Source: an uncultured Candidatus Saccharibacteria bacterium (lineage in GTDB: Bacteria > Patescibacteriota > Minisyncoccia > Minisyncoccales > JANBVM01). From it: a stretch of 64,000 nt of DNA. Of the stretch, positions 14,342-64,000 are shown piece after piece. The translations under genes and the position numbers were made by a program. The stretch is taken from NCBI GenBank assembly GCA_964514375.1, contig CAZEQH010000003.1:12-64011 (forward strand), read 5' to 3'. The notes below the pieces were generated by a model. The model made no database searches. It was not told where the DNA came from and saw nothing but the letters and a program-made list of their open reading frames with translations. Position 1 is the first letter of the stretch; the number at the start of each line of letters is the position of its first letter.

Positions 14342-14407
14342 AATAAAGGATTTTATTGTTTTTATTATTTATGTCCTATCTATCGATAGGACAATGTAGG
14401 ACAAGAG

Positions 14408-14456
14408 GTTCGGAGTTCGGGGTTCGGAGTTCGAAGAAGGAAGTTCGAAGTTCGAA
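14408..14456. repeat. Tandem heptad tract GTTCGRR x7 (one unit degenerate)
   Basis: GTTCGGA GTTCGGG GTTCGGA GTTCGAA GAAGGAA GTTCGAA GTTCGAA. Related tracts occur at 17765..17786, 22797..22845, 43127..43149 and 63812..63839. Confidence 0.85.
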
Positions 14457-14466
14457 GACTAAATGA

Positions 14467-14599
14467 GGTAAGTGGTTGCAGGGTGGTCTTAAAGCCGGAG
14501 CGGGCATGGTTTTGCGGCTCTGCCGCAAAGAGCAAATGCCTTAAAGGCCTGCGAACTCTGCTCGCCGGGCAGAGCGAACGACCCTGAAACCAGCTTACC
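14467..14599. repeat. 133-nt GC-rich hairpin-rich repeat module 'S', copy 1 (candidate structured RNA)
   Basis: About three-quarters identical by eye to 22863..22995. Contains the perfect hairpin TTTGCGGC-TCT-GCCGCAAA, the hairpin CTCTGC-N7-GCAGAG, and a long closing stem GGTAAG..CAGGGT / ACCCTG..CTTACC. Confidence 0.8.
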
Positions 14600-14616
14600 G
14601 AACGACACGCTTCAGA

Positions 14617-17750: not shown

Positions 17751-17975
17751 GTTCAAATTTTAATGTTTGAAGTTCGATGTTACGAATCAATAATTCAGAC
17801 AGTTCTCGAGGGAGACGCTTCGCAGCCGAGCCCGGTCGTAGATAACGTTTCACTTCTAATAAACTGAGGCTCGGCGAGAAATAGAAGCAGCGGTGAAAAA
17901 GTAATTGTAGCTGTTTTAAGCCGACTTCGTGTCACCCTCGGCTGCAGCCTACGGGCGAGGCCCGAAAGAAATGAC
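17751..17975. repeat. Composite intergenic repeat block (degenerate heptads, 8-bp GC stem, module 'M' fragment)
   Basis: GTTTGAAGTTCGATGTTACGAA heptads. Stem GCCGAGCC (17825..17832) / GGCTCGGC (17868..17875). 17928..17963 CGTGTCACCCTCGGCTGCAGCCTACGGGCGAGGCCC matches 23003..23086 and the reverse complement of 63854..63917. Confidence 0.8.
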
Positions 17976-21531: not shown

Positions 21532-22749
21532 TCACGCCTTTCTTTTTCCTCTGCCGGCCGCCTTTAATACTCTGGCCATCAGCGTGATTTGTTTTATCGT
21601 ACCCAACCCTCCCTTACTGCATGATTTTTCGGAAAACTTCTTAACGTCATCTTCCGCCGCCCCGGAGATAAGAACAGGAATCTGCTCCTTGCAATGCCTC
21701 TTTAAAGAACAGCAGGTTGAATGGTCGCCCGTCACCACGATAATCGTATCTTTCAGCCTTAAAAATGGACCAAAGTGACTGTCTATCTTTTCTATGAATT
21801 TCTTTTTCCCTTTGAAATCTCCGTCTTCCGCCAGACTGTCCGTGGCCTTGATATGCAGAAAGACGAAATCATACTCCTTCAAGGCCTTAAGAACGGCTTT
21901 CACCTTGCCTGTCAGGTTAGTGGAAACCAGTCCGTTGGCTCCCTTAACCTTAAGCACCTTCATACCGAGAATCTCCCCTATCTGCTTATAGAGTATTTTG
22001 CCTGCAACACAGCAGGCCTTCAGGCCGTATCTTGCCGAAAATGAAGGTATCTTTCTGGGAGAGCTCGCTCCCCGCACTAAAATATAATTTGCCTGAGGCA
22101 GCCCTCTCTTTTTTCTGGCCTCGTTGAGGGGATGAACTTTTAAAATCTCGTGTGCTCTCTCTAAAAACTCATTCAATACCTGAGCCGTAAAGGCAGACTC
22201 CTTGCTTTTATCCAAGGGTACTATTTTAGTTACCCTGCTGCCCAAGTGCGCATAATGAGGGTCTCCGTCTGAAATTTTACTGCTCAATCTCTTACCCCTC
22301 ATCACTATACCCACCCTGTGTTCGCCAGCTGGCTTAATAAGGAAACTGACATTCTTTATTTTCATTCCGGATAAAGCCGCTACCAGGGGACCTGTCTCTT
22401 TTATCCTGCCTGCCCGACGGTTCACAATGTTGAGGTCCTTGCCGACGGTACTGAAATTTCCCCTCAAAGCCACGTCTCCTTTTTTAAGCTTGATACCTGC
22501 TCCCTTGGCAGTAAATATCCCCCTGGCTAACTCCAGTTTGTGGGGATTATATCCGAAAAGCGCAAAATGGGATTCTTCCGAGGTGGGAAGGGCTTTGGTA
22601 AAATAAGGGTCCAATAATCCGCATCGACCCTTTTGAGCCAAGCCGTCAAGATTGGGAGTAACTGCGGCCTCCAGGGGCGTACGGTTTTTGAGTTCTTTAA
22701 TGGGTTTATCTCCTAATCCGTCTAAGACGATAAATAGTATTTTGTTCAT
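21532..22749 (-). CDS. apgM: 2,3-bisphosphoglycerate-independent phosphoglycerate mutase, archaeal ApgM type
   Basis: MNKILFIVLDGLGDKP...LEAAVTPNLD metal-site motifs. I use the internal Met at 22749. The 113 upstream codons of the track ORF are translated repeat DNA. Confidence 0.85.
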   Translation of the reverse strand: MNKILFIVLDGLGDKPIKELKNRTPLEAAVTPNLDGLAQKGRCGLLDPYFTKALPTSEESHFALFGYNPHKLELARGIFTAKGAGIKLKKGDVALRGNFSTVGKDLNIVNRRAGRIKETGPLVAALSGMKIKNVSFLIKPAGEHRVGIVMRGKRLSSKISDGDPHYAHLGSRVTKIVPLDKSKESAFTAQVLNEFLERAHEILKVHPLNEARKKRGLPQANYILVRGASSPRKIPSFSARYGLKACCVAGKILYKQIGEILGMKVLKVKGANGLVSTNLTGKVKAVLKALKEYDFVFLHIKATDSLAEDGDFKGKKKFIEKIDSHFGPFLRLKDTIIVVTGDHSTCCSLKRHCKEQIPVLISGAAEDDVKKFSEKSCSKGGLGTIKQITLMARVLKAAGRGKRKA

Positions 22750-22789
22750 AAGCGGGTTCCCTCCTTCGCTCTCACGAGCTTCGGAAGGG

Positions 22790-23095
22790 CGAAGCGAGGT
22801 TCGAAGATTATATGTTATAGACTTCGAGGGTCGAAGATAATATGTATTCGGGGTTTTTGTGAGGTAAGCAGGTTTCAGGGTGGTCTTGAGGCCTGAGCGG
22901 GCACGGTTTTGCGGCTCTGCCGCAAAGAGCGAAGGATTCAACACCAGTGAGCTCTGCTCGCTGGGCAGAGCGAACGACCCTGGAGCCTGTTTGCCGAACA
23001 ATCGTGTCACTCTCGGCCGTAAACCGGACACGAGCGAGGCCCTCGGCTGTAGCCTACGGGCGAGGCTCGAGGGAACCGCCTGAAACACCTATAGA
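22790..23095. repeat. Composite intergenic repeat block (TCGAAG-containing units, module S copy 2, module M)
   Basis: 22801..22815 TCGAAGATTATATGT and 22831..22845 TCGAAGATAATATGT. Module S at 22863..22995. Module M at 23003..23086. Confidence 0.85.
22863..22995. repeat. 133-nt repeat module 'S', copy 2 (candidate structured RNA)
   Basis: Same length as, and collinear with, 14467..14599. The 19-bp closing stem is fully paired only if read as plus-strand RNA (15 Watson-Crick + 4 G-U pairs). Confidence 0.8.
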
Positions 23096-23103
23096 TAATG
23101 TAA

Positions 23104-24354
23104 TTAAAGCAGCTCTTCGATGGCGGAAAGGCGGTTGTATTTGGCCACCCTCTCGCCGCGGGCAGGAGCCCCGGTTTTAATGAAGTCTGCGGATATCCCT
23201 ACTGCAAAGTCTGCTATAAAGTCATCTGTAGTGTCCCCAGACCTGTGGGAAACTACTATTTTCCATCCGAACTCCTTTGCCAAACGGGCAGCTTCCAGTG
23301 CCTCTGAAACCGTTCCTATCTGATTGATTTTAAGAATCATGGAATTGACCGCCTTTTTTTCTTCAGCTTCCTTTATTCTGACAGGATTGGTTACCAGCAG
23401 GTCGTCTCCGATAATCATAATCTTTTTCCCTAAGTCTTCTGTAATCTTCCGGAACCCTTCCCAATCCTCCTCAGCAAATGGGTCTTCTATGCCGGAAATA
23501 GGATACTTAGAAATCAAGCTGCCGTAATACCTGAGTAAACCCTCTCTGGTGAATACGCCCATCTGCAGTCTATATTTATCATGTTCTAAAAACTGAGAGG
23601 CCGCCACATCAAGTATGACTTTAACTTCGCTTTCGTATCCCAAACCTTTCAGGGCTGACAAGATAAGTTCCAAAGCCTGCTCGGGCACGATGAGAGGAGG
23701 TGCGAAACCGCCTTCGTCCCCTAAATTAGTGGCCAGCTTTCCGTATCTTTCCAGGAGGATTTTTTTAAGCTGCTGGTAAGTCTCCGCACCGATGCGCAGA
23801 TTGTCCGAAAAAGCCTGTTTGCCGGGAGCTATCATAAACTCCTGAAAGTCCAGTCTGTTCCCCGCATGAGCGCCTCCATTGATGATGTTGAAGGAAGGGA
23901 AAGGTATTTTTAGAGAAACTGCCGGCAATTTGTATTCTCGTCCCTTCCCGTTGATATATTGAAAAAGAGGCAGTTTTTCTGCCTGTGAAGCAGCCTTGCA
24001 CACTGCCAGAGAAACGGCACAGATAGCATTGCCTCCAAGGCTGGATTTATTATCGGTAGCGTCCATTTCCTTCATCAGGCCGTCAATCTCCATCTGGGCG
24101 GTGGATTTTATCCCTAAAAGCCGGGGTGCTATGATGTTGTTGATGTTATCTACGGCTTTCAGAACTCCCTTGCCGAAATACGCCTTCTCCTTATCTCTCA
24201 GCTCTACTGCCTCATATTTACCCGTAGAGGCGCCGGAGGGGACAGAGGCTGCAGAAATACCGCCGCCTGTTTCCACCTCCACTTCTATGGTCGGGTTTCC
24301 CCTGGAATCCAATATTTGCCTGGCTCTTATTTTTTTTACTTTAGAAGAAGACAT
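23104..24354 (-). CDS. eno: Enolase
   Basis: 416 aa. RQILDSRGNPTIEVEV, SHRSGDTTD and KTGAPARGERVAKYN motifs. Confidence 0.95.
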   Translation of the reverse strand: MSSSKVKKIRARQILDSRGNPTIEVEVETGGGISAASVPSGASTGKYEAVELRDKEKAYFGKGVLKAVDNINNIIAPRLLGIKSTAQMEIDGLMKEMDATDNKSSLGGNAICAVSLAVCKAASQAEKLPLFQYINGKGREYKLPAVSLKIPFPSFNIINGGAHAGNRLDFQEFMIAPGKQAFSDNLRIGAETYQQLKKILLERYGKLATNLGDEGGFAPPLIVPEQALELILSALKGLGYESEVKVILDVAASQFLEHDKYRLQMGVFTREGLLRYYGSLISKYPISGIEDPFAEEDWEGFRKITEDLGKKIMIIGDDLLVTNPVRIKEAEEKKAVNSMILKINQIGTVSEALEAARLAKEFGWKIVVSHRSGDTTDDFIADFAVGISADFIKTGAPARGERVAKYNRLSAIEELL

Positions 24355-50804: not shown

Positions 50805-51257
50805 GTCCTAGTAAGCTGGGCGATTACTCTTTTGATTATCTAATCAAAAGGGAGGAAAGTCCGAACACTCTCTCATGGCTGGAGCTAATGAGCTTATCTG
50901 CCATGGATAAAAGGGTAGGGGGTAACACCCCCCGGCTGAGAAGCCAGAGGTGCGAGCAGAGACGCCACGGTTCGAAAGAACTGAGGTATCCGATTACGGA
51001 TAAGCTGCCTATAAATGACCGCTCTGCGGGCAGGAAATGGCAGGTGAAACGGCTAAATCCTTATCGAGTGCAAGAACAAACCTCTGACAGGAAAAGGATA
51101 ACCATGTGTACCCAAAAGGTGCTTATATCCTACCTGCTGAGGGAAAAGTAGTTCGCAGGAGCCGTGAGGAGACTCGCGGCCAAGATAAATGATCGCCTAT
51201 CTCTTAGATTTATTCTGAGAGAAAACAAAATTCGGCTTATAGGCTTACTAGGACATC
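50805..51257 (+). ncRNA. rnpB: RNase P RNA (bacterial type)
   Basis: P1 pairing GTCCTAGTAAGC (50805..) with GCTTACTAGGAC (..51254). Conserved GGAGGAAAGTCCG (50851..50863) and ACAAAATTCGGCTTATAG near the 3' end. The ORFs 50732..51151 and 51164..51502 are therefore spurious. Confidence 0.85.
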
Positions 51258-51304: not shown

Positions 51305-51748
51305 TTAGAAAAGTTTATTTTCCTTCTCCTTTTCATCCAGAGCTTCGTTGACCAAGGCGTCTGCCTCCTTATTCTTTTCCCGCGAGACCTGCCTGAAAGA
51401 TACCTTCTGAAAATCCAATTTCAAATTCCACAGCTCAATAAAGAGTTTCTGAATTTTCTCATCCAGGATTTTATATTCCCCTTTGAGCTGTTTTACCAGT
51501 AGTTCGGAATCTGATGTTACAGTTATTTCGCTGGCCTTGGCCATTTTTTTCCCGAAGAGGTGCTTGAATTTCTGTAAGCCGAAAATAACCGCCTGATATT
51601 CCGCCTCGTTATTAGTCAGTCCTTCGCCCAGATATTGGGAATACTTTTTGAAAAACTGCCCCTTTTCGTTGCAAAAAACAACGCCCGCTGCTGCGGGACC
51701 AGGGTTTCCTCTGGAACCTCCGTCGGTGTATATTGTTATTTTCTTCAT
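51305..51748 (-). CDS. rnhA: Ribonuclease HI
   Basis: IYTDGGSRGNPGPAAAG and NNEAEYQAVI motifs, with the catalytic D/E/D pattern. Confidence 0.85.
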   Translation of the reverse strand: MKKITIYTDGGSRGNPGPAAAGVVFCNEKGQFFKKYSQYLGEGLTNNEAEYQAVIFGLQKFKHLFGKKMAKASEITVTSDSELLVKQLKGEYKILDEKIQKLFIELWNLKLDFQKVSFRQVSREKNKEADALVNEALDEKEKENKLF

Positions 51749-51852
51749 AAGTTCTTTATAAGATATTTCTTGAAAAGTTCTTTATAAGACAATTCTTGAA
51801 AAGTTCTTTATAAGATATTTCTTGAAAAGTTCTTTATAAGACAATTCTTGAA
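51749..51852. repeat. Perfect tandem duplication 2 x 52 bp (four 26-bp sub-repeats)
   Basis: 51749..51800 is identical to 51801..51852. Each copy is AAGTTCTTTATAAGATATTTCTTGAA + AAGTTCTTTATAAGACAATTCTTGAA, which differ at 2 positions. The distal copy encodes the last 14 codons and the stop of the DHH gene. The proximal copy fills the whole gap up to the rnhA ATG. Confidence 0.95.
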
Positions 51853-52959
51853 ATCTTCGAGATTACCATTTTTTATTCTGAAGCCGGAAGCTGCCGGATG
51901 ACCGCCGTAAGTAAGAACATACTCTTCGCACTTTTTCATAAGAGCTACGCTGTCAACGTCTTTAGGAACCCTCACCGTCCCCTGGCTTTCACTCTCCAGC
52001 ATCTTATAGATAAAAGTAGGTTTTGCAAATTCCCTGCATACTATAGAGGCAACTGAGGAGATAAGGGGATATTCCCATTCATAATCCCCTTCAAATATTA
52101 TGGGGCCTTTTTTCATAGCTAACCTTTTTTTCACCTCCAGAACGGTGTTCTCTATTTTTGCTTTCCTCTCTGCGTTTTTTTTCCTCAAGTCAAGGATTAT
52201 CTCCCGGGCCTTTTCTTCCGAAGAAACCGTTAACAGCCGGAAAGACGAAGGGAATCCCTGCTCCACATCCCTGACATTTAGAATGGAAATTATTTTATAA
52301 ACCTTCTGGTTGAGTTCGTATTTCTGCAAGAAATCAGCCGAGAATAAGGCCTTAATGCCCGGTCTCCAGGAATCTTTTAGATAATCCAGACCTTCCTCTA
52401 TAAACAACTCGTTTTCGTCCTCCTTGGGCATCATATCCGCCATGGTGGCCAGAGCCGTAAGCTCTATGAGGCTTTTCCTAAGACCGGCGCCCATCGCCTC
52501 TCCAAGCAGGGCTTCTGCGAGCTTGAAAACTACGCCGGCTGCGGCCAATTCCTTAAAGGGGTAATTGTCTCCCGGCTGTTTTGGGTCAACCACTATATCC
52601 GCCTCCGGGATGCGGTCCAAAATTTCGTGATGGTCCACCACTATCACGCTGAACCCCATCTGTCTGGCTTTTTTTATTTCAGTAAAATTACCTATACCGC
52701 AGTCAACAGTAATAAGGAGAGACGGGGCAAGTTTACCCAGGATACTGAGGGCATTCCCGGTAAGTCCGTATCCCTCCTTTTCCCTGTCGGGAAAATAAAT
52801 AGCAGAGATTTCTCCGCCTAAAGTCTTAATCGCCTCCTCTAATATGATAACTGAAGTTACACCGTCCAGGTCCGCATCTCCATAAAGGATTATTCTTTCT
52901 TTATTATCCTTCGCGGCCTCCCGAATGCGCTCCGCAGCTTTCTTCAGGTTCTTAATCAT
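51808..52959 (-). CDS. DHH/DHHA1 phosphoesterase (short RecJ-like / NrnA-like)
   Basis: ILYGDADLDGVTS, DCG, VVDHH and GGHPAASGF motifs. Confidence 0.8.
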   Translation of the reverse strand: MIKNLKKAAERIREAAKDNKERIILYGDADLDGVTSVIILEEAIKTLGGEISAIYFPDREKEGYGLTGNALSILGKLAPSLLITVDCGIGNFTEIKKARQMGFSVIVVDHHEILDRIPEADIVVDPKQPGDNYPFKELAAAGVVFKLAEALLGEAMGAGLRKSLIELTALATMADMMPKEDENELFIEEGLDYLKDSWRPGIKALFSADFLQKYELNQKVYKIISILNVRDVEQGFPSSFRLLTVSSEEKAREIILDLRKKNAERKAKIENTVLEVKKRLAMKKGPIIFEGDYEWEYPLISSVASIVCREFAKPTFIYKMLESESQGTVRVPKDVDSVALMKKCEEYVLTYGGHPAASGFRIKNGNLEDFKNCLIKNFSRNIL

Positions 52960-62412: not shown

Positions 62413-62740
62413 AATAAAGGAAAGCCCGCCTATATTTTAATATCTTTACTGAAATTTTCAAGTATTGAAATTTTAGGCGGGGATAATTTTATTTCCTTTT
62501 CTTTGCTTTCTTTTTGGCTGCCTTTTTCTTCATGGGCTTCTTCTTCATGGGTTTCTTTTTCTTGGCTGCCTTTTTTGCTTTCTTTTTTGCCATGTAAATG
62601 TTTTTGAATAATTTGGAAAAAATTCGACCTTTATTTTTTAAAAAATTTAATATGTTATATTATTTTCTCATTTTTAAAAAGAGTATGTCAAGAAAAATAC
62701 TCTTCATAACTCTGATTTGGAAAAATAATTTATCCATCAA

Positions 62741-63706
62741 CTACTCCAAATATTGAAGCTCCTCCTCGAGGTTAATGCCGAATTTTTCCTTTACTTCCTG
62801 TTTGGCTAAGGCAATAAGTTCTTTCACTTCTTCTGCCTTGCCTCCTCCCAGATTGACGATGAAATTGGAATGTCTTTCCGAGATTTTTACGTTTCCTATT
62901 CTTCTGCCGGCCAATCCGGATTCCGCGATGAGCCTGCCGGCAGGCAGGCCCTCGGCCATAGGCCGGCCGCGGGCGAGGCCTTCAGGCTTTTCTTTATCCG
63001 TGCTCTCTTTTTCCGATGAAGGATTCTTAAAGATACTGCCGGCTGAAGGAAATTCTAAGGGATGCTTTTTCCTGCGATAATCAACGTACTCCGCCATCTC
63101 TTCTGCACCTTTTTTCTTGTCCCCCTTCTTTAAACGAATCTTACAGGACAAAACTATCAAATTAGCATTTTTCTTGAAGACACTGCTGCGGTAGGAAAAA
63201 TCACAATTAGCTTTACTGATATTTCTTATTTTACCCGTTTCCGAGTCGAAAGCCTCCACCTCCTCCACAACATCCTTCATGGAACCATACCAGGCCCCGG
63301 CATTCCCTCTCACCGCTCCCCCGACGGTTCCGGGAATTCCAGCCGCCCACTCCAATCCCGTTAATCCCGCCTCATTGGATTCTTTAATTAATTTATCCAG
63401 AGAAAGTCCTGCTCCAGACACGGCATAATCATCTTTTATTTCAAACTCTGCGTTTTTTACTTTGATTATCAGACCGTTGAAACCCTTATCGGAAATCAAC
63501 AGCTTACTGCCCCCTCCTATTAGGTAAAACGGAATACCCAGCTCCACTGCGGCCTTGACTCCTTGGATAACTTTTTCTTTTGTATTGGCCGCCAAAAAAA
63601 ATCTGGCCGGCCCTCCAATCCGGAAAGTAGTATGGTTTTCCAAAAGCACCTGATATTCAACGCCGGGTAATTTTTCCCTGATTTTATTATCAATTTCCGT
63701 ATTCAT
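62741..63706 (-). CDS. murB: UDP-N-acetylenolpyruvoylglucosamine reductase MurB, with an about 20-25 aa GC-rich insertion
   Basis: FAD-binding RIGGPARFF, YLIGGGSKLL, GIPGTVGGAVRGNAGA, and C-terminal AGSIFKNP...AGRLIAESGLAGRRIG. The segment between FKNP and AGRLI is about 20 aa longer than in the canonical MurB I recall. Confidence 0.9.
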   Translation of the reverse strand: MNTEIDNKIREKLPGVEYQVLLENHTTFRIGGPARFFLAANTKEKVIQGVKAAVELGIPFYLIGGGSKLLISDKGFNGLIIKVKNAEFEIKDDYAVSGAGLSLDKLIKESNEAGLTGLEWAAGIPGTVGGAVRGNAGAWYGSMKDVVEEVEAFDSETGKIRNISKANCDFSYRSSVFKKNANLIVLSCKIRLKKGDKKKGAEEMAEYVDYRRKKHPLEFPSAGSIFKNPSSEKESTDKEKPEGLARGRPMAEGLPAGRLIAESGLAGRRIGNVKISERHSNFIVNLGGGKAEEVKELIALAKQEVKEKFGINLEEELQYLE

Positions 63707-63811
63707 AACTCAAAGGGCCGGGAGAGTTAACTCCTAGGTAAGTCTATGTGAGTGCTGCCTCCCGGCCCAATTTTAATTATTACACACGGATTTTCAAAAA
63801 ACAACAAGAAA

Positions 63812-63917
63812 GTTCGAGGTTCGGAGTTCGGTGTTCGGTGTTTGCAATTAGGATTCAGGCGGTTGCCGAGGGCCTCGCCCGTAGGCCTAGCCTCCGGGCT
63901 ACGGCCGAGGGGGACAC
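63812..63917. repeat. Composite intergenic repeat block (heptads + inverted module M)
   Basis: GTTCGAG GTTCGGA GTTCGGT GTTCGGT (63812..63839). The reverse complement of 63854..63917 matches 23003..23086 (GTGTC-CTCGGCCGTA..GCCTACGGGCGAGGC..AACCGCCTGAA). Confidence 0.8.
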
Positions 63918-63944
63918 CCCACAACCAAACATCGAACGTCTACT

Positions 63945-63982
63945 CAAAAAACAACAGACACTGCTCGAGGAGTGTCTGTTGT
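63945..63982 (-). terminator. Intrinsic terminator for a gene beyond the right edge
   Basis: Perfect 12-bp stem ACAACAGACACT (63951..63962) / AGTGTCTGTTGT (63971..63982) with an 8-nt loop. On the minus strand it is followed by TTTTTT. Confidence 0.7.
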
Positions 63983-64000
63983 CGACTTACAGGAGTTCTC

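What the first reader, a model, noticed from the sequence alone, without database searches (positions are those of the whole stretch)
62945..63019. murB appears to carry an in-frame copy of the GC-rich repeat module
Seen:
- Between the conserved MurB motifs AGSIFKNP and AGRLIAESGLAGRRIG lie 25 residues: SSEKESTDKEKPEGLARGRPMAEGL.
- The underlying DNA at 62948..62982 is GGCCCTCGGCCATAGGCCGGCCGCGGGCGAGGCC.
- It shares GGCCCTCGGC and CGGGCGAGGC (10 of 10 each, same order and strand) with the intergenic module at 23037..23066, GGCCCTCGGCTGTAGCCTACGGGCGAGGC.
- It is flanked by a perfect 14-bp palindrome, GCCTGCCGGCAGGC (62934..62947).
- It is far more GC-rich than the rest of murB. Another copy of the module lies about 150 bp upstream of the same gene.

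Known: in the MurB sequences I recall (E. coli, B. subtilis) only about 5 residues separate these motifs. In-frame insertion of palindromic repeats into ORFs is documented for Rickettsia palindromic elements.

Inference: this may be an analogous repeat insertion that MurB tolerates in a surface loop.
Basis: partly seen in the sequence, partly recalled or inferred. Interest (0 to 1): 0.65.

Follow-up and report, generated by a model that had tools for sequence, protein, structure and literature searches.

The report
Mobile palindromic repeat inserted inside murB
The cell-wall gene murB of this ultra-small (Patescibacteria/CPR) bacterium carries an in-frame 30-base copy of a short GC-rich hairpin repeat that turns out to be scattered, almost unchanged, through the genomes and many housekeeping genes of very diverse CPR bacteria, and that I could not find described in the literature searched.

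Summary
Confirmed and extended. murB (62741-63706, minus strand) contains a 31-nt GC-rich block (62949-62979). The block coincides with a 30-nt length difference from the nearest ortholog (77% aa identity). A covariance model built only from copies in other genomes finds four significant hits in the window: three intergenic modules and this block (E about 7e-4). The block is 29/31 identical to a variant recurring in unrelated metagenome contigs. That variant, read in the same frame in other genes, encodes GLARGRA(T/M)AEG; murB encodes GLARGRPMAEG.

The family (arms CCCTCGGCC...CGGGCGAGGC, 26-48 nt) occurs in many CPR lineages, between genes and in frame inside GatA, GatB, UvrA, UvrC, UvrD-type helicase, LigA, TsaD, Dus and trigger factor. 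Genic copies are almost all of in-frame length (23/25 versus 17/60 non-genic, p=4e-8), so they are probably translated.

In an AlphaFold model the insert lies in the only disordered loop, at the site where MurB types I and II differ in length.

The mobilising machinery is unknown. Long-form copies sit beside small GIY-YIG nuclease genes at tRNA-Gln genes. The closest analogue is the Rickettsia palindromic elements, but this is not a member of that family. No publication was found.

The parts
62741..63706 (-). murB (UDP-N-acetylenolpyruvoylglucosamine reductase), 321 aa, host gene of the insert
   Evidence: ORF. Pfam FAD_binding_4 plus MurB_C. Best solved-structure matches are type II MurB 1HSK, 4PYT and 3TX1. 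The identical protein occurs in three other independent assemblies, with 0-1 SNP in the DNA.
62949..62979 (+). In-frame copy of the GC-rich palindromic element, written in element orientation; it is read on the minus strand as part of murB. Sequence: CCCTCGGCCATAGGCCGGCCGCGGGCGAGGC. The net insertion is 30 nt (10 codons) and splits a Gly codon, so PEGLPAGR becomes PE-GLARGRPMAE-GLPAGR. The insertion falls within residues 243-253.
   Evidence: Covariance-model hit of 25.6 bits, E=6.6e-4. 29/31 identity to the recurrent variant CCCTCGGCCATAGCCCGGCCACGGGCGAGGC. The 30-nt gap in the L001 ortholog lies exactly here. Precise one-base-shared insertion is inferred from the tRNA-Gln case in L014.
62945..63019 (-). 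Coding region of the whole variable loop (residues 230-254) between the strand carrying the catalytic Ser motif GSIFKNP and the helix AGRLIAE
   Evidence: Loop length ranges from 4 to 38 aa in 120 CPR MurB homologs. pLDDT is below 50 for residues 232-250, while the model mean is 91.8. Type II structures have 3-4 aa here and type I about 28.
62932..62945 (.). Perfect 14-bp palindrome GCCTGCCGGCAGGC; it encodes (L)PAGR(L) and is probably not part of the element
   Evidence: Located. The number of palindromes of this length in the window equals the shuffle expectation (5 versus 4.6). L001 has an imperfect version.
63872..63911 (-). Canonical long-form (40-nt) intergenic copy, 166-205 nt upstream of the murB start and inverted relative to the murB copy. 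The start of a second unit abuts it at 63865-63874.
   Evidence: Covariance-model hit of 60.2 bits, E=5.7e-12. Sequence. Also present in L003 and L004 with one SNP.
23011..23066 (+). Two tandem units between the enolase gene and the apgM gene: a diverged 29-31-nt unit at about 23011-23042 and a 27-nt unit at 23040-23066
   Evidence: Covariance-model hit of 39.5 bits for 23040-23066. The fuzzy-arm search finds 23011-23039. Smith-Waterman gives 24/30 against the murB block. Flanking genes are identified. The real apgM start lies downstream of the module.
17935..17961 (+). 27-nt intergenic copy just after the mnmA stop codon
   Evidence: Covariance-model hit of 35 bits, E=4.3e-6. Flanking genes MnmA and ThiI.

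Best explanation
The block in murB is a solo copy of a short, non-autonomous, GC-rich palindromic mobile element. The element has conserved arms CCCTCGGCC...CGGGCGAGGC and is 26-48 nt long. It is spread through Patescibacteria/CPR genomes.

Shown: a 30-nt copy of the 31-nt subfamily sits in a Gly codon of the loop between the catalytic-Ser strand and the following helix of MurB, on the lineage leading to this organism. It arrived there after the split from its nearest sequenced relative. Since then it has acquired two substitutions, one of them synonymous.

Inferred:
- Its length is a multiple of three and it has no stop codon in the frame used. It is therefore translated as ten extra residues (GLARGRPMAE).
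- It is tolerated because the loop is disordered, on the surface and naturally variable in length.
- It probably has no function of its own in MurB.
- Insertion is precise, with at most one shared C and no target-site duplication. The machinery is unknown. My working guess is an enzyme acting on the DNA hairpin in trans. The best candidate is the small (about 80 aa) GIY-YIG nucleases whose genes sit directly beside long-form copies at tRNA-Gln genes.
For: Membership of the repeat family:
- Exact arms are present.
- The covariance model built from other genomes finds only the three intergenic modules and the murB block in the window.
- The block is 29/31 identical to a recurrent variant.
- That variant read in the same frame in other genes gives GLARGRA(T/M)AEG (L083, L084, L099, L121).

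Insertion rather than ancestral loop:
- The 77%-identical ortholog lacks exactly 30 nt. Removing the element restores PEGLPAGR against PENFPAGR in the ortholog, with no further indel.
- More distant relatives have 12-15-aa loops without it.

Not an artefact: the same allele occurs in four independent assemblies.

General habit of the family:
- In-frame copies occur in GatA, UvrA and TsaD as extra residues relative to solved structures.
- They also occur in LigA, UvrC, UvrD-type helicase, trigger factor, GatB, Dus, a MiaB-like radical SAM enzyme and a PfkB kinase.
- 23 of 25 genic copies have in-frame length, against 17 of 60 non-genic copies (Fisher p=4e-8).
- All four stop-free frames are used, so the DNA rather than a peptide is what is conserved.

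Precise insertion: deleting two copies from a tRNA-Gln gene in L014 restores a detectable tRNA.

Tolerance: AlphaFold gives a mean pLDDT of 91.8, with only residues 232-250 below 50. The site is the indel that separates type I and type II MurB.

GIY-YIG link:
- 27 of 72 copies lie in a tRNA-Gln 5' fragment.
- About 17 of these are followed within about 20 nt by a GIY-YIG ORF.
- An intact tRNA-Gln gene lies next to these copies.
Against: - The inner stem of the murB copy is eroded. It does not fold better than shuffled sequence (z -0.6 to -1.5, against -4.3 for the canonical 28-mer). It is therefore probably immobile now.
- The covariance-model E-value is only about 1e-3 and roughly calibrated. 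The model's arms are invariant by ascertainment.
- Polarity rests on one close ortholog plus more distant outgroups in a hypervariable loop.
- Translation of the insert is inferred, not observed.
- No GIY-YIG gene and no transposase were seen in the 64-kb window or next to the short genic copies. No conserved target sequence was seen. The proposed mobilising enzyme is therefore speculative.
- Identical copies at the same UvrA site in two genomes whose flanks are only 66% identical do not fit simple neutral decay after a single old insertion.
Confidence: 0.8

Rival explanations
1. Local tandem duplication or slippage. The ten extra codons (EGLARGRPMA) would be a diverged duplicate of the following ten (EGLPAGRLIA), and the resemblance to the intergenic modules would be a by-product of GC-rich composition.
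For: The two 30-nt segments share 19/30 positions and the peptide pattern EGL..GR..A (read). Other CPR MurB loops also look like flank duplications: FSAGEL...FAAARL and GFLAGRL...FGAGEL.
Against: The block matches a 31-mer found in dozens of unrelated contexts at 29/31. It also scores significantly with a model built without any sequence from this genome. The repeated GGCCT at both ends follows from the palindromic arms. Removing exactly the element leaves an undisturbed alignment with the ortholog.
Confidence: 0.04
2. The loop including the element is ancestral, and the L001 lineage lost it by precise excision or deletion. On this reading the element is old in murB rather than a lineage-specific gain.
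For: Only one close ortholog is available. The element can evidently be delimited precisely, so precise loss is conceivable.
Against: The next relatives (56-58% identity) have 12-15-aa loops of the L001 type without the element. The copy is only 2/31 diverged from a common variant, while murB itself is 24% diverged from L001 at the DNA level. L001 has no copy anywhere in its 13.7 kb.
Confidence: 0.08
3. The element is removed at the RNA level, like a mini-intron, or otherwise not translated, so that MurB protein lacks the ten residues.
For: Copies sit in the D-loop and T-loop of an otherwise intact tRNA-Gln gene. Such a gene could work only if the inserts were removed. Arms are conserved at the nucleotide level in every frame.
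Against: Genic copies are strongly filtered for length divisible by three. This filter would be unnecessary if they were excised. The tRNA-Gln copies carrying inserts always lie beside an intact tRNA-Gln gene. Rfam has no match for the module near 23 kb or for the murB upstream region containing the 63872-63911 copy.
Confidence: 0.06
4. The insert is adaptive. Selection would have favoured an Arg/Gly-rich loop extension near the substrate-binding domain of MurB, convergent with the longer type I loop.
For: The loop reaches the length of the type I segment. Many CPR MurBs have independently long loops.
Against: The same DNA is found in at least 14 unrelated protein families and in four frames. 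The loop is predicted to be disordered. The closest relative does without it.
Confidence: 0.05

Closest known systems
Rickettsia palindromic elements (RPE)
   Same: Both are palindromic repeats of a reduced-genome, host-dependent bacterium. Both are found between genes and, unusually often, in frame inside housekeeping genes. There they add a peptide segment compatible with the protein fold (PMC10969869).
   Different: RPEs are about 100-150 bp, encode tens of residues and are confined to one genus. This element is 26-48 nt, adds 9-13 residues and has nearly invariant arms across many CPR classes. It forms tandem arrays and is linked to GIY-YIG genes at tRNA-Gln. No sequence relation is expected.
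REP/BIME elements with RAYT transposases (Enterobacteria, Pseudomonas)
   Same: Both are GC-rich imperfect palindromes of 20-40 nt. Both occur singly, in tandem or inverted just after stop codons. In both, a conserved mismatch makes the hairpin asymmetric, and a dedicated nuclease/transposase gene is flanked by copies (my recollection of the REP/RAYT literature).
   Different: REPs are extragenic by definition and species-specific. Their partner is an IS200/IS605-type tyrosine (Y1) enzyme. Here copies enter ORFs, the sequence is shared across a superphylum, and the only linked enzyme gene is a GIY-YIG nuclease. RAYT was not searched for systematically.
Mobile GC clusters of yeast mitochondrial DNA, and coding palindromes of other organelle genomes
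   Same: Both are short GC-rich palindromes in an AT-rich genome. Both occur as single elements and tandem arrays, and occasionally inside coding genes in frame (yeast var1, from my recollection). The search listed papers on coding palindromes in Nematomorpha mitochondria (PMC6649704) and palindromic repeats in Volvox organelle DNA (PMC2670323), known to me from their abstracts only.
   Different: Those are organellar rather than bacterial, with unrelated sequences. Yeast clusters show short target duplications, whereas none is seen here.
Type I versus type II MurB loop difference
   Same: The insert sits exactly where type I enzymes carry about 28 extra residues relative to type II.
   Different: The type I segment is an ordered, conserved substructure. 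Here the extra residues come from a repeat and are predicted to be disordered.

Membership tests
CPR GC-rich palindromic element family (defined in this report) | Both conserved arms, CCCTCGGCC at the 5' end and CGGGCGAGGC at the 3' end, in this order on one strand | tested here: met
   Exact at 62949-62957 and 62970-62979.
CPR GC-rich palindromic element family (defined in this report) | Significant score with a covariance model built from copies in other genomes | tested here: met
   25.6 bits, E=6.6e-4 over the window. It ranks fourth, after the three intergenic copies, and the next hit has E>2. E-values are rough.
CPR GC-rich palindromic element family (defined in this report) | Central part matches a recurrent length variant | tested here: met
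   29/31 ungapped identity to CCCTCGGCCATAGCCCGGCCACGGGCGAGGC (6 copies). 28/31 to the G-variant (27 copies).
CPR GC-rich palindromic element family (defined in this report) | Stable hairpin: outer 5-bp stem, conserved G.G mismatch, inner 4-6-bp stem | tested here: inconclusive
   The outer stem is intact. The inner stem is weakened by the A and G substitutions. Folding is no better than shuffles (z -0.6 and -1.5), against z -4.3 for the canonical 28-mer.
CPR GC-rich palindromic element family (defined in this report) | Genic copies have a length giving a net insertion divisible by three | tested here: met
   Net 30 nt relative to L001. 23 of 25 genic copies follow the rule.
Rickettsia palindromic elements | Element of about 100-150 bp belonging to the described RPE families | tested here: not met
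   The insert is 30-31 nt. Sequence homology to RPE consensus sequences was not tested.
Rickettsia palindromic elements | Host genus Rickettsia | tested here: not met
   The nearest named relatives of the MurB are Candidatus Nealsonbacteria / Patescibacteria. Family copies are in CPR metagenome-assembled genomes.
Rickettsia palindromic elements | In-frame insertion into ORFs at positions compatible with the fold | tested here: met
   This is a functional resemblance only.
REP / BIME | Extragenic location | tested here: not met
   The murB copy and at least 25 other copies lie inside ORFs. Three window copies are extragenic.
REP / BIME | Associated RAYT (IS200/IS605-like Y1 transposase) gene flanked by copies | not tested
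   Only the genes next to the window copies were scanned, and they showed no transposase. No systematic search for RAYT was made.
MITE (classical) | Terminal inverted repeats plus a target-site duplication of 2 bp or more | tested here: not met
   Removing the element while leaving one shared C restores a tRNA-Gln gene in L014. Any duplication is therefore at most 1 nt. The whole element is one hairpin rather than TIRs around a core.
DNA uptake sequences (DUS/USS) | About one copy per kb of a 9-12-nt motif | tested here: not met
   4-5 copies in 64 kb. The unit is a 26-48-nt hairpin.
MurB (UDP-N-acetylenolpyruvoylglucosamine reductase) | FAD_binding_4 plus MurB_C domains and the GSxFKNP Ser motif | tested here: met
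   Pfam hits of 2e-20 and 1e-29. The motif SAGSIFKNP is present. PDB MurB matches reach 4e-48.

The most novel reading that the evidence does not exclude
The murB insert is one visible footprint of an undescribed, superphylum-wide mobile system. Its two parts would be 26-48-nt GC-rich hairpin elements and, as their mobilising partner, small GIY-YIG nucleases nested between tRNA-Gln gene copies. This would be a REP/RAYT-like partnership built on a different enzyme class. It would continuously remodel CPR housekeeping proteins by 9-13-residue in-frame insertions. It would also keep its copies homogeneous, as in the identical copies at one UvrA site in genomes whose flanks are 66% identical.
Probability: 0.25. 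Interest if true: 0.85.

Novelty: new variant of a known kind. Interest (0 to 1): 0.7.

Why it matters
In-frame colonisation of essential genes by selfish palindromes has so far been documented mainly for Rickettsia. Finding the same habit in the Candidate Phyla Radiation matters for four reasons.

- Source of peptide insertions: the element is much shorter, and its sequence is nearly fixed across very distant lineages. This suggests that such elements are a recurrent source of the many lineage-specific peptide insertions seen in CPR proteins.
- Genome analysis: the element is a ready marker for horizontal exchange and for repeat-induced misassembly in CPR metagenome-assembled genomes.
- Testable enzymology: the link with GIY-YIG genes at tRNA-Gln offers a concrete hypothesis for how hairpin repeats move without a classical transposase.
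- MurB itself: the case pinpoints a loop that tolerates arbitrary ten-residue insertions next to the catalytic serine strand.

Tried and rejected
- Tandem duplication as the origin. Rejected because of the 29/31 match to a widespread 31-mer and the clean excision alignment.
- The 14-bp palindrome as part of the element or as a target. The number of such palindromes equals chance, and the palindrome encodes the conserved PAGR motif.
- Known RNA families. Rfam at gathering threshold over the whole window found only RNase P RNA and four tRNAs. E-value searches of 22740-23110 and 63690-64000 found nothing credible.
- Phage carriage. There were no exact copies in 2.9 million viral contigs.
- A partner enzyme in the window. 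No GIY-YIG ORF was found with an HMM built from the linked ORFs. The genes flanking the intergenic copies are enolase, apgM, ThiI, MnmA and an SDR.
- Copies in the nearest relative. There are none in the 13.7 kb of L001.
- A conserved target site or target duplication. None is visible in 72 flanks.
- Literature. Four searches aimed at the element itself found nothing relevant. These used CPR, Patescibacteria or Parcubacteria combined with palindromic, MITE or GIY-YIG. A search for the literal DNA and peptide strings also found nothing. Two further searches retrieved only the Rickettsia and organelle analogues.
- A locus excluded from the host-gene list. L035 shows a stop-free fusion of a UvrD-like N-terminus and MraW at the element. 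It may be a gene junction or a chimeric assembly.

Full report
**1. The observation**

murB is the ORF 62741-63706 on the minus strand. It encodes 321 aa with Pfam FAD_binding_4 and MurB_C domains. It matches solved MurB structures down to 4e-48.

They lie at 62947-62956 and 62970-62979 in murB, and at 23038-23047 and 23057-23066 in the intergenic module, all on the + strand.

GC content reaches 77% at 62930-62989, in a window of 43.8% GC. The 14-bp palindrome is at 62932-62945. Palindromes of that length are no more frequent in the window than in shuffled sequence.

**2. It is an insertion**

Among 7591 scored homologs, the closest relative other than the identical protein is P0002, at 77% identity. 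The next relatives are at 56-58%. The DNA of P0002 (L001, NCBI GCA_964566875.1) aligns with the window's murB at about 76% identity, with a single gap of exactly 30 nt.

If the element is deleted and one shared base kept, the window reads CCT GAA GGC CTG CCT GCC GGC AGG (PEGLPAGR). L001 reads CCA GAA AAT TTT CCC GCC GGA AGG (PENFPAGR). No other indel is needed. The element therefore split a Gly codon and added ten residues.

More distant relatives have 12-15-residue loops of the L001 kind. The identical protein is found in three further independent assemblies. Their DNA differs from the window by 0-1 SNP, so the insert is not an assembly artefact.

**3. It is a member of a repeat family**

Within the window:
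- Smith-Waterman search of the block against the rest of the window ranks the three GC-rich intergenic modules first. These lie near 23 kb, 63.9 kb and 17.9 kb.
- Six of 1000 shuffles reach the observed score.

Across genomes:
- I scanned 185,579 species-representative genomes for CCCTCGGCYGYAGCC-N(0-20)-TACGGGCGAGGC.
- The scan returned 72 copies in 68 stretches.
- Nearly all are in Patescibacteria/CPR metagenome-assembled genomes of many different classes, with host GC of 30-67%.
- The copies comprise 39 distinct sequences of 27-46 nt. They share invariant arms and a conserved G.G mismatch in the stem.

Covariance model:
- I built a model from these foreign copies only.
- In the window it finds four significant hits:
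  - 63872-63911: 60 bits
  - 23040-23066: 39.5 bits
  - 17935-17961: 35 bits
  - murB block 62949-62979: 25.6 bits, E=6.6e-4
- Everything else has E>0.1. Those weaker hits are reverse-strand echoes of the same copies or scattered sites with E>2.

Metagenome scan for mid-length variants:
- The 31-mer CCCTCGGCCGTAGCCCGGCCACGGGCGAGGC occurs 27 times.
- Its A-variant occurs 6 times.
- The murB block differs from the A-variant at two positions (29/31).
- In the coding frame one difference is synonymous (CGT to CGC). The other changes Ala to Pro.

**4. In-frame insertion is the family's habit**

About a third of the copies lie inside long stop-free frames. The peptides they add depend on strand and frame:
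- xLGRSPTGEA
- ASPVGLRPR
- GLARRATAEG or GLARGRATAEG
- PSAVALRAR

All four stop-free frames are used. The DNA, not a peptide, is therefore what is conserved.

Alignment to solved structures shows the peptides as extra residues:
- GatA against 2DF4
- UvrA against 9GXK
- TsaD against 8IEY

Pfam identifies further hosts: LigA (two copies), UvrC, a UvrD-type helicase, trigger factor, GatB, Dus, a MiaB-like radical SAM enzyme, an AIR-synthase-related protein and a PfkB kinase.

Length filtering:
- Of 25 clearly genic copies, 23 have a pattern length of 1 modulo 3. This corresponds to a net insertion divisible by three.
- Only 17 of 60 clearly non-genic copies do (Fisher p=4e-8).
- This filter is what one expects if the copies are translated. 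It argues against removal at the RNA level.

**5. Precision of insertion**

In L014 a second tRNA-Gln(CTG) gene carries one copy in the D-loop and one in the T-loop. Deleting both, while leaving one C at each junction, restores a tRNA that ARAGORN detects. Insertion is therefore clean, with at most a one-base overlap and no target-site duplication.

The same rule predicts a net 30 nt for a 31-nt pattern. That is exactly the murB gap.

**6. Where it sits in the protein**

An AlphaFold2 model built with 120 homologs has a mean pLDDT of 91.8. Only one segment falls below 50: residues 232-250. The loop lies between strand 221-224, which carries the GSIFKNP serine motif, and helix 256-262.

Loop length at this site:
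- Type II MurB structures have 3-4 residues here.
- A type I structure (3I99) has about 28.
- In 120 CPR homologs the loop ranges from 4 to 38 residues.

The site is a natural hot spot for length change. This fits a tolerated, probably neutral insertion.

**7. State of the copy**

The canonical 28- and 32-nt elements fold into strong DNA hairpins (z -4.3 and -3.1). The murB copy does not fold better than shuffles, because its two substitutions weaken the inner stem. I read it as a young but already decaying solo copy. It is 2/31 diverged, in a gene that is 24% diverged from its nearest relative.

**8. How it moves (inferred)**

What was not found:
- No transposase or GIY-YIG gene lies in the window.
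- No copies occur in viral contigs.
- No conserved target sequence was seen.

What was found for long-form copies:
- 27 of 72 interrupt the D-loop position of a 24-nt 5' fragment of tRNA-Gln (..GGGATCGT[element]TAATGGTAGGAC..).
- About 17 of these are followed within about 20 nt by an 80-aa ORF. Two representative ORFs were confirmed as Pfam GIY-YIG.
- An intact tRNA-Gln gene lies next to them (example L025).
- An HMM of these ORFs finds a GIY-YIG gene in 27 of the 68 genome loci.
- In another group the reverse-oriented element lies about 15 nt upstream of the GIY-YIG start (L015, L033, L063).

This recalls REP elements flanking RAYT genes, but with a different enzyme class. I rate the idea that these nucleases mobilise the element at about one in four.

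One result does not fit passive decay. Two UvrA genes (L022, L044) carry the element at the same site. It is identical over 33 nt, while the flanks are 66% identical. This suggests homogenisation, repeated site-specific insertion or selection on the DNA.

**9. Comparison with known systems, and novelty**

- The behaviour is that of the Rickettsia palindromic elements (PMC10969869). Size, host and sequence exclude membership.
- REP/BIME elements resemble it in size and hairpin form. They are extragenic and have tyrosine (Y1) enzyme partners.
- Classical MITEs have target duplications, which are not seen here.
- Mobile GC clusters of yeast mitochondria are a further analogue, from my own recollection.

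Four searches aimed at the element found nothing relevant. A search for the literal DNA and peptide strings also found nothing. Two further searches retrieved only the Rickettsia and organelle analogues. Rfam has no match.

I class the murB insert as a new variant of a known kind of event. The family behind it appears to be undescribed.

Noticed in passing
L025:2270-2660; also L010, L013, L024, L026, L032, L045, L047, L052, L060 and others: A fixed arrangement recurs in many CPR genomes. It consists of a 5' fragment of tRNA-Gln whose D-loop is interrupted by a long-form element, then an 80-aa GIY-YIG nuclease ORF starting about 15-25 nt later, then an intact tRNA-Gln gene. It looks like a nuclease cassette nested between tRNA-Gln copies.
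   Followed up: partly
L014:6685-7160: Tandem tRNA-Gln(CTG) genes flank a GIY-YIG ORF. The second tRNA carries two element copies, 41 nt in the D-loop and 26 nt in the T-loop. It becomes detectable as a tRNA again when both are deleted precisely.
   Followed up: yes
L022 and L044 (UvrA genes; element in the region joining the N-terminal ATPase part and the UvrB-interaction domain): The same 28-nt element sits at the same UvrA position in two genomes. The element plus 5 nt is identical (33/33), while the flanking coding DNA is only 66% identical. This suggests homogenisation, repeated site-specific insertion or selection on the DNA.
   Followed up: partly
L123: about 2180-2330 (murB loop of P0063; similar loops in P0055 and P0062): Other CPR MurBs carry a different palindromic insert in the same loop. 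It has the form GGGCGAAGA...TCTTCGCCC with an inner hairpin GAAGAGAAC-GAA-GTTCTCTTC. It encodes GEENKSSS...KKRTKFSSP between duplicated FSAGEL and FAAARL motifs. The loop seems to attract palindromes of more than one kind.
   Followed up: partly
window 14474-14603 and 22871-22999; heptamer-like GTTCGRR runs at 14405-14460, 22780-22840 and 63806-63845: A second repeat of about 130 nt (81-90% identical between its two copies) is made of several GC-rich hairpins. It is preceded by runs of GTTCGGA/GTTCGAA-like heptamers and sits next to the palindromic elements. Rfam has no match in 22740-23110. Its nature is unknown.
   Followed up: partly
window 63718-63770; L001:2724-2742 region; L123:1409-1465: A conserved hairpin of about 55 nt (GGCCGGGAGAGTTAACTCC...GTGAGTGC...CCTCCCGGCC) lies immediately upstream of the murB start in distant CPR genomes. 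In L123 it has the opposite orientation relative to murB. Rfam has no match. It could be a small RNA gene, a leader structure or an invertible hairpin.
   Followed up: partly
window 51715-51870: Tandem array of about five 26-nt units (TTCTTGAAAAGTTCTTTATAAGATAT), next to the RNase P RNA gene (50808-51255).
   Followed up: no
window 21532-23088 (minus strand): The mechanical 518-aa ORF with a GTG start runs through the repeat region. The real apgM gene starts at MNKILFIVLDGLGD, at about 22749, so the module near 23 kb is truly intergenic.
   Followed up: yes
window 62490-62594 (minus strand): A 34-codon lysine-rich ORF (MAKKKAKKAAKKKKPMKKKPMKKKAAKKKAKKRK) lies between murB and the hpf-like gene. 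It is called as a gene of 34-42 aa in L004 and L001.
   Followed up: no
L035:6563-7720: A stop-free frame joins a UvrD-like helicase N-terminal domain to an MraW/RsmH methylase fragment exactly at an element copy. This may be a gene junction read through, or a chimeric assembly caused by the repeat.
   Followed up: no
L048 (MAG labelled Woesearchaeota), L006/L009/L069 (labelled Edwardsbacteria), and several MAGs labelled Gammaproteobacteria or Saccharibacteria: Element copies occur in genome bins whose labels are not CPR Parcubacteria-type, one of them archaeal, with a GIY-YIG ORF adjacent in L048. This could reflect mislabelled or contaminated bins, or horizontal transfer to organisms sharing the habitat.
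   Followed up: no
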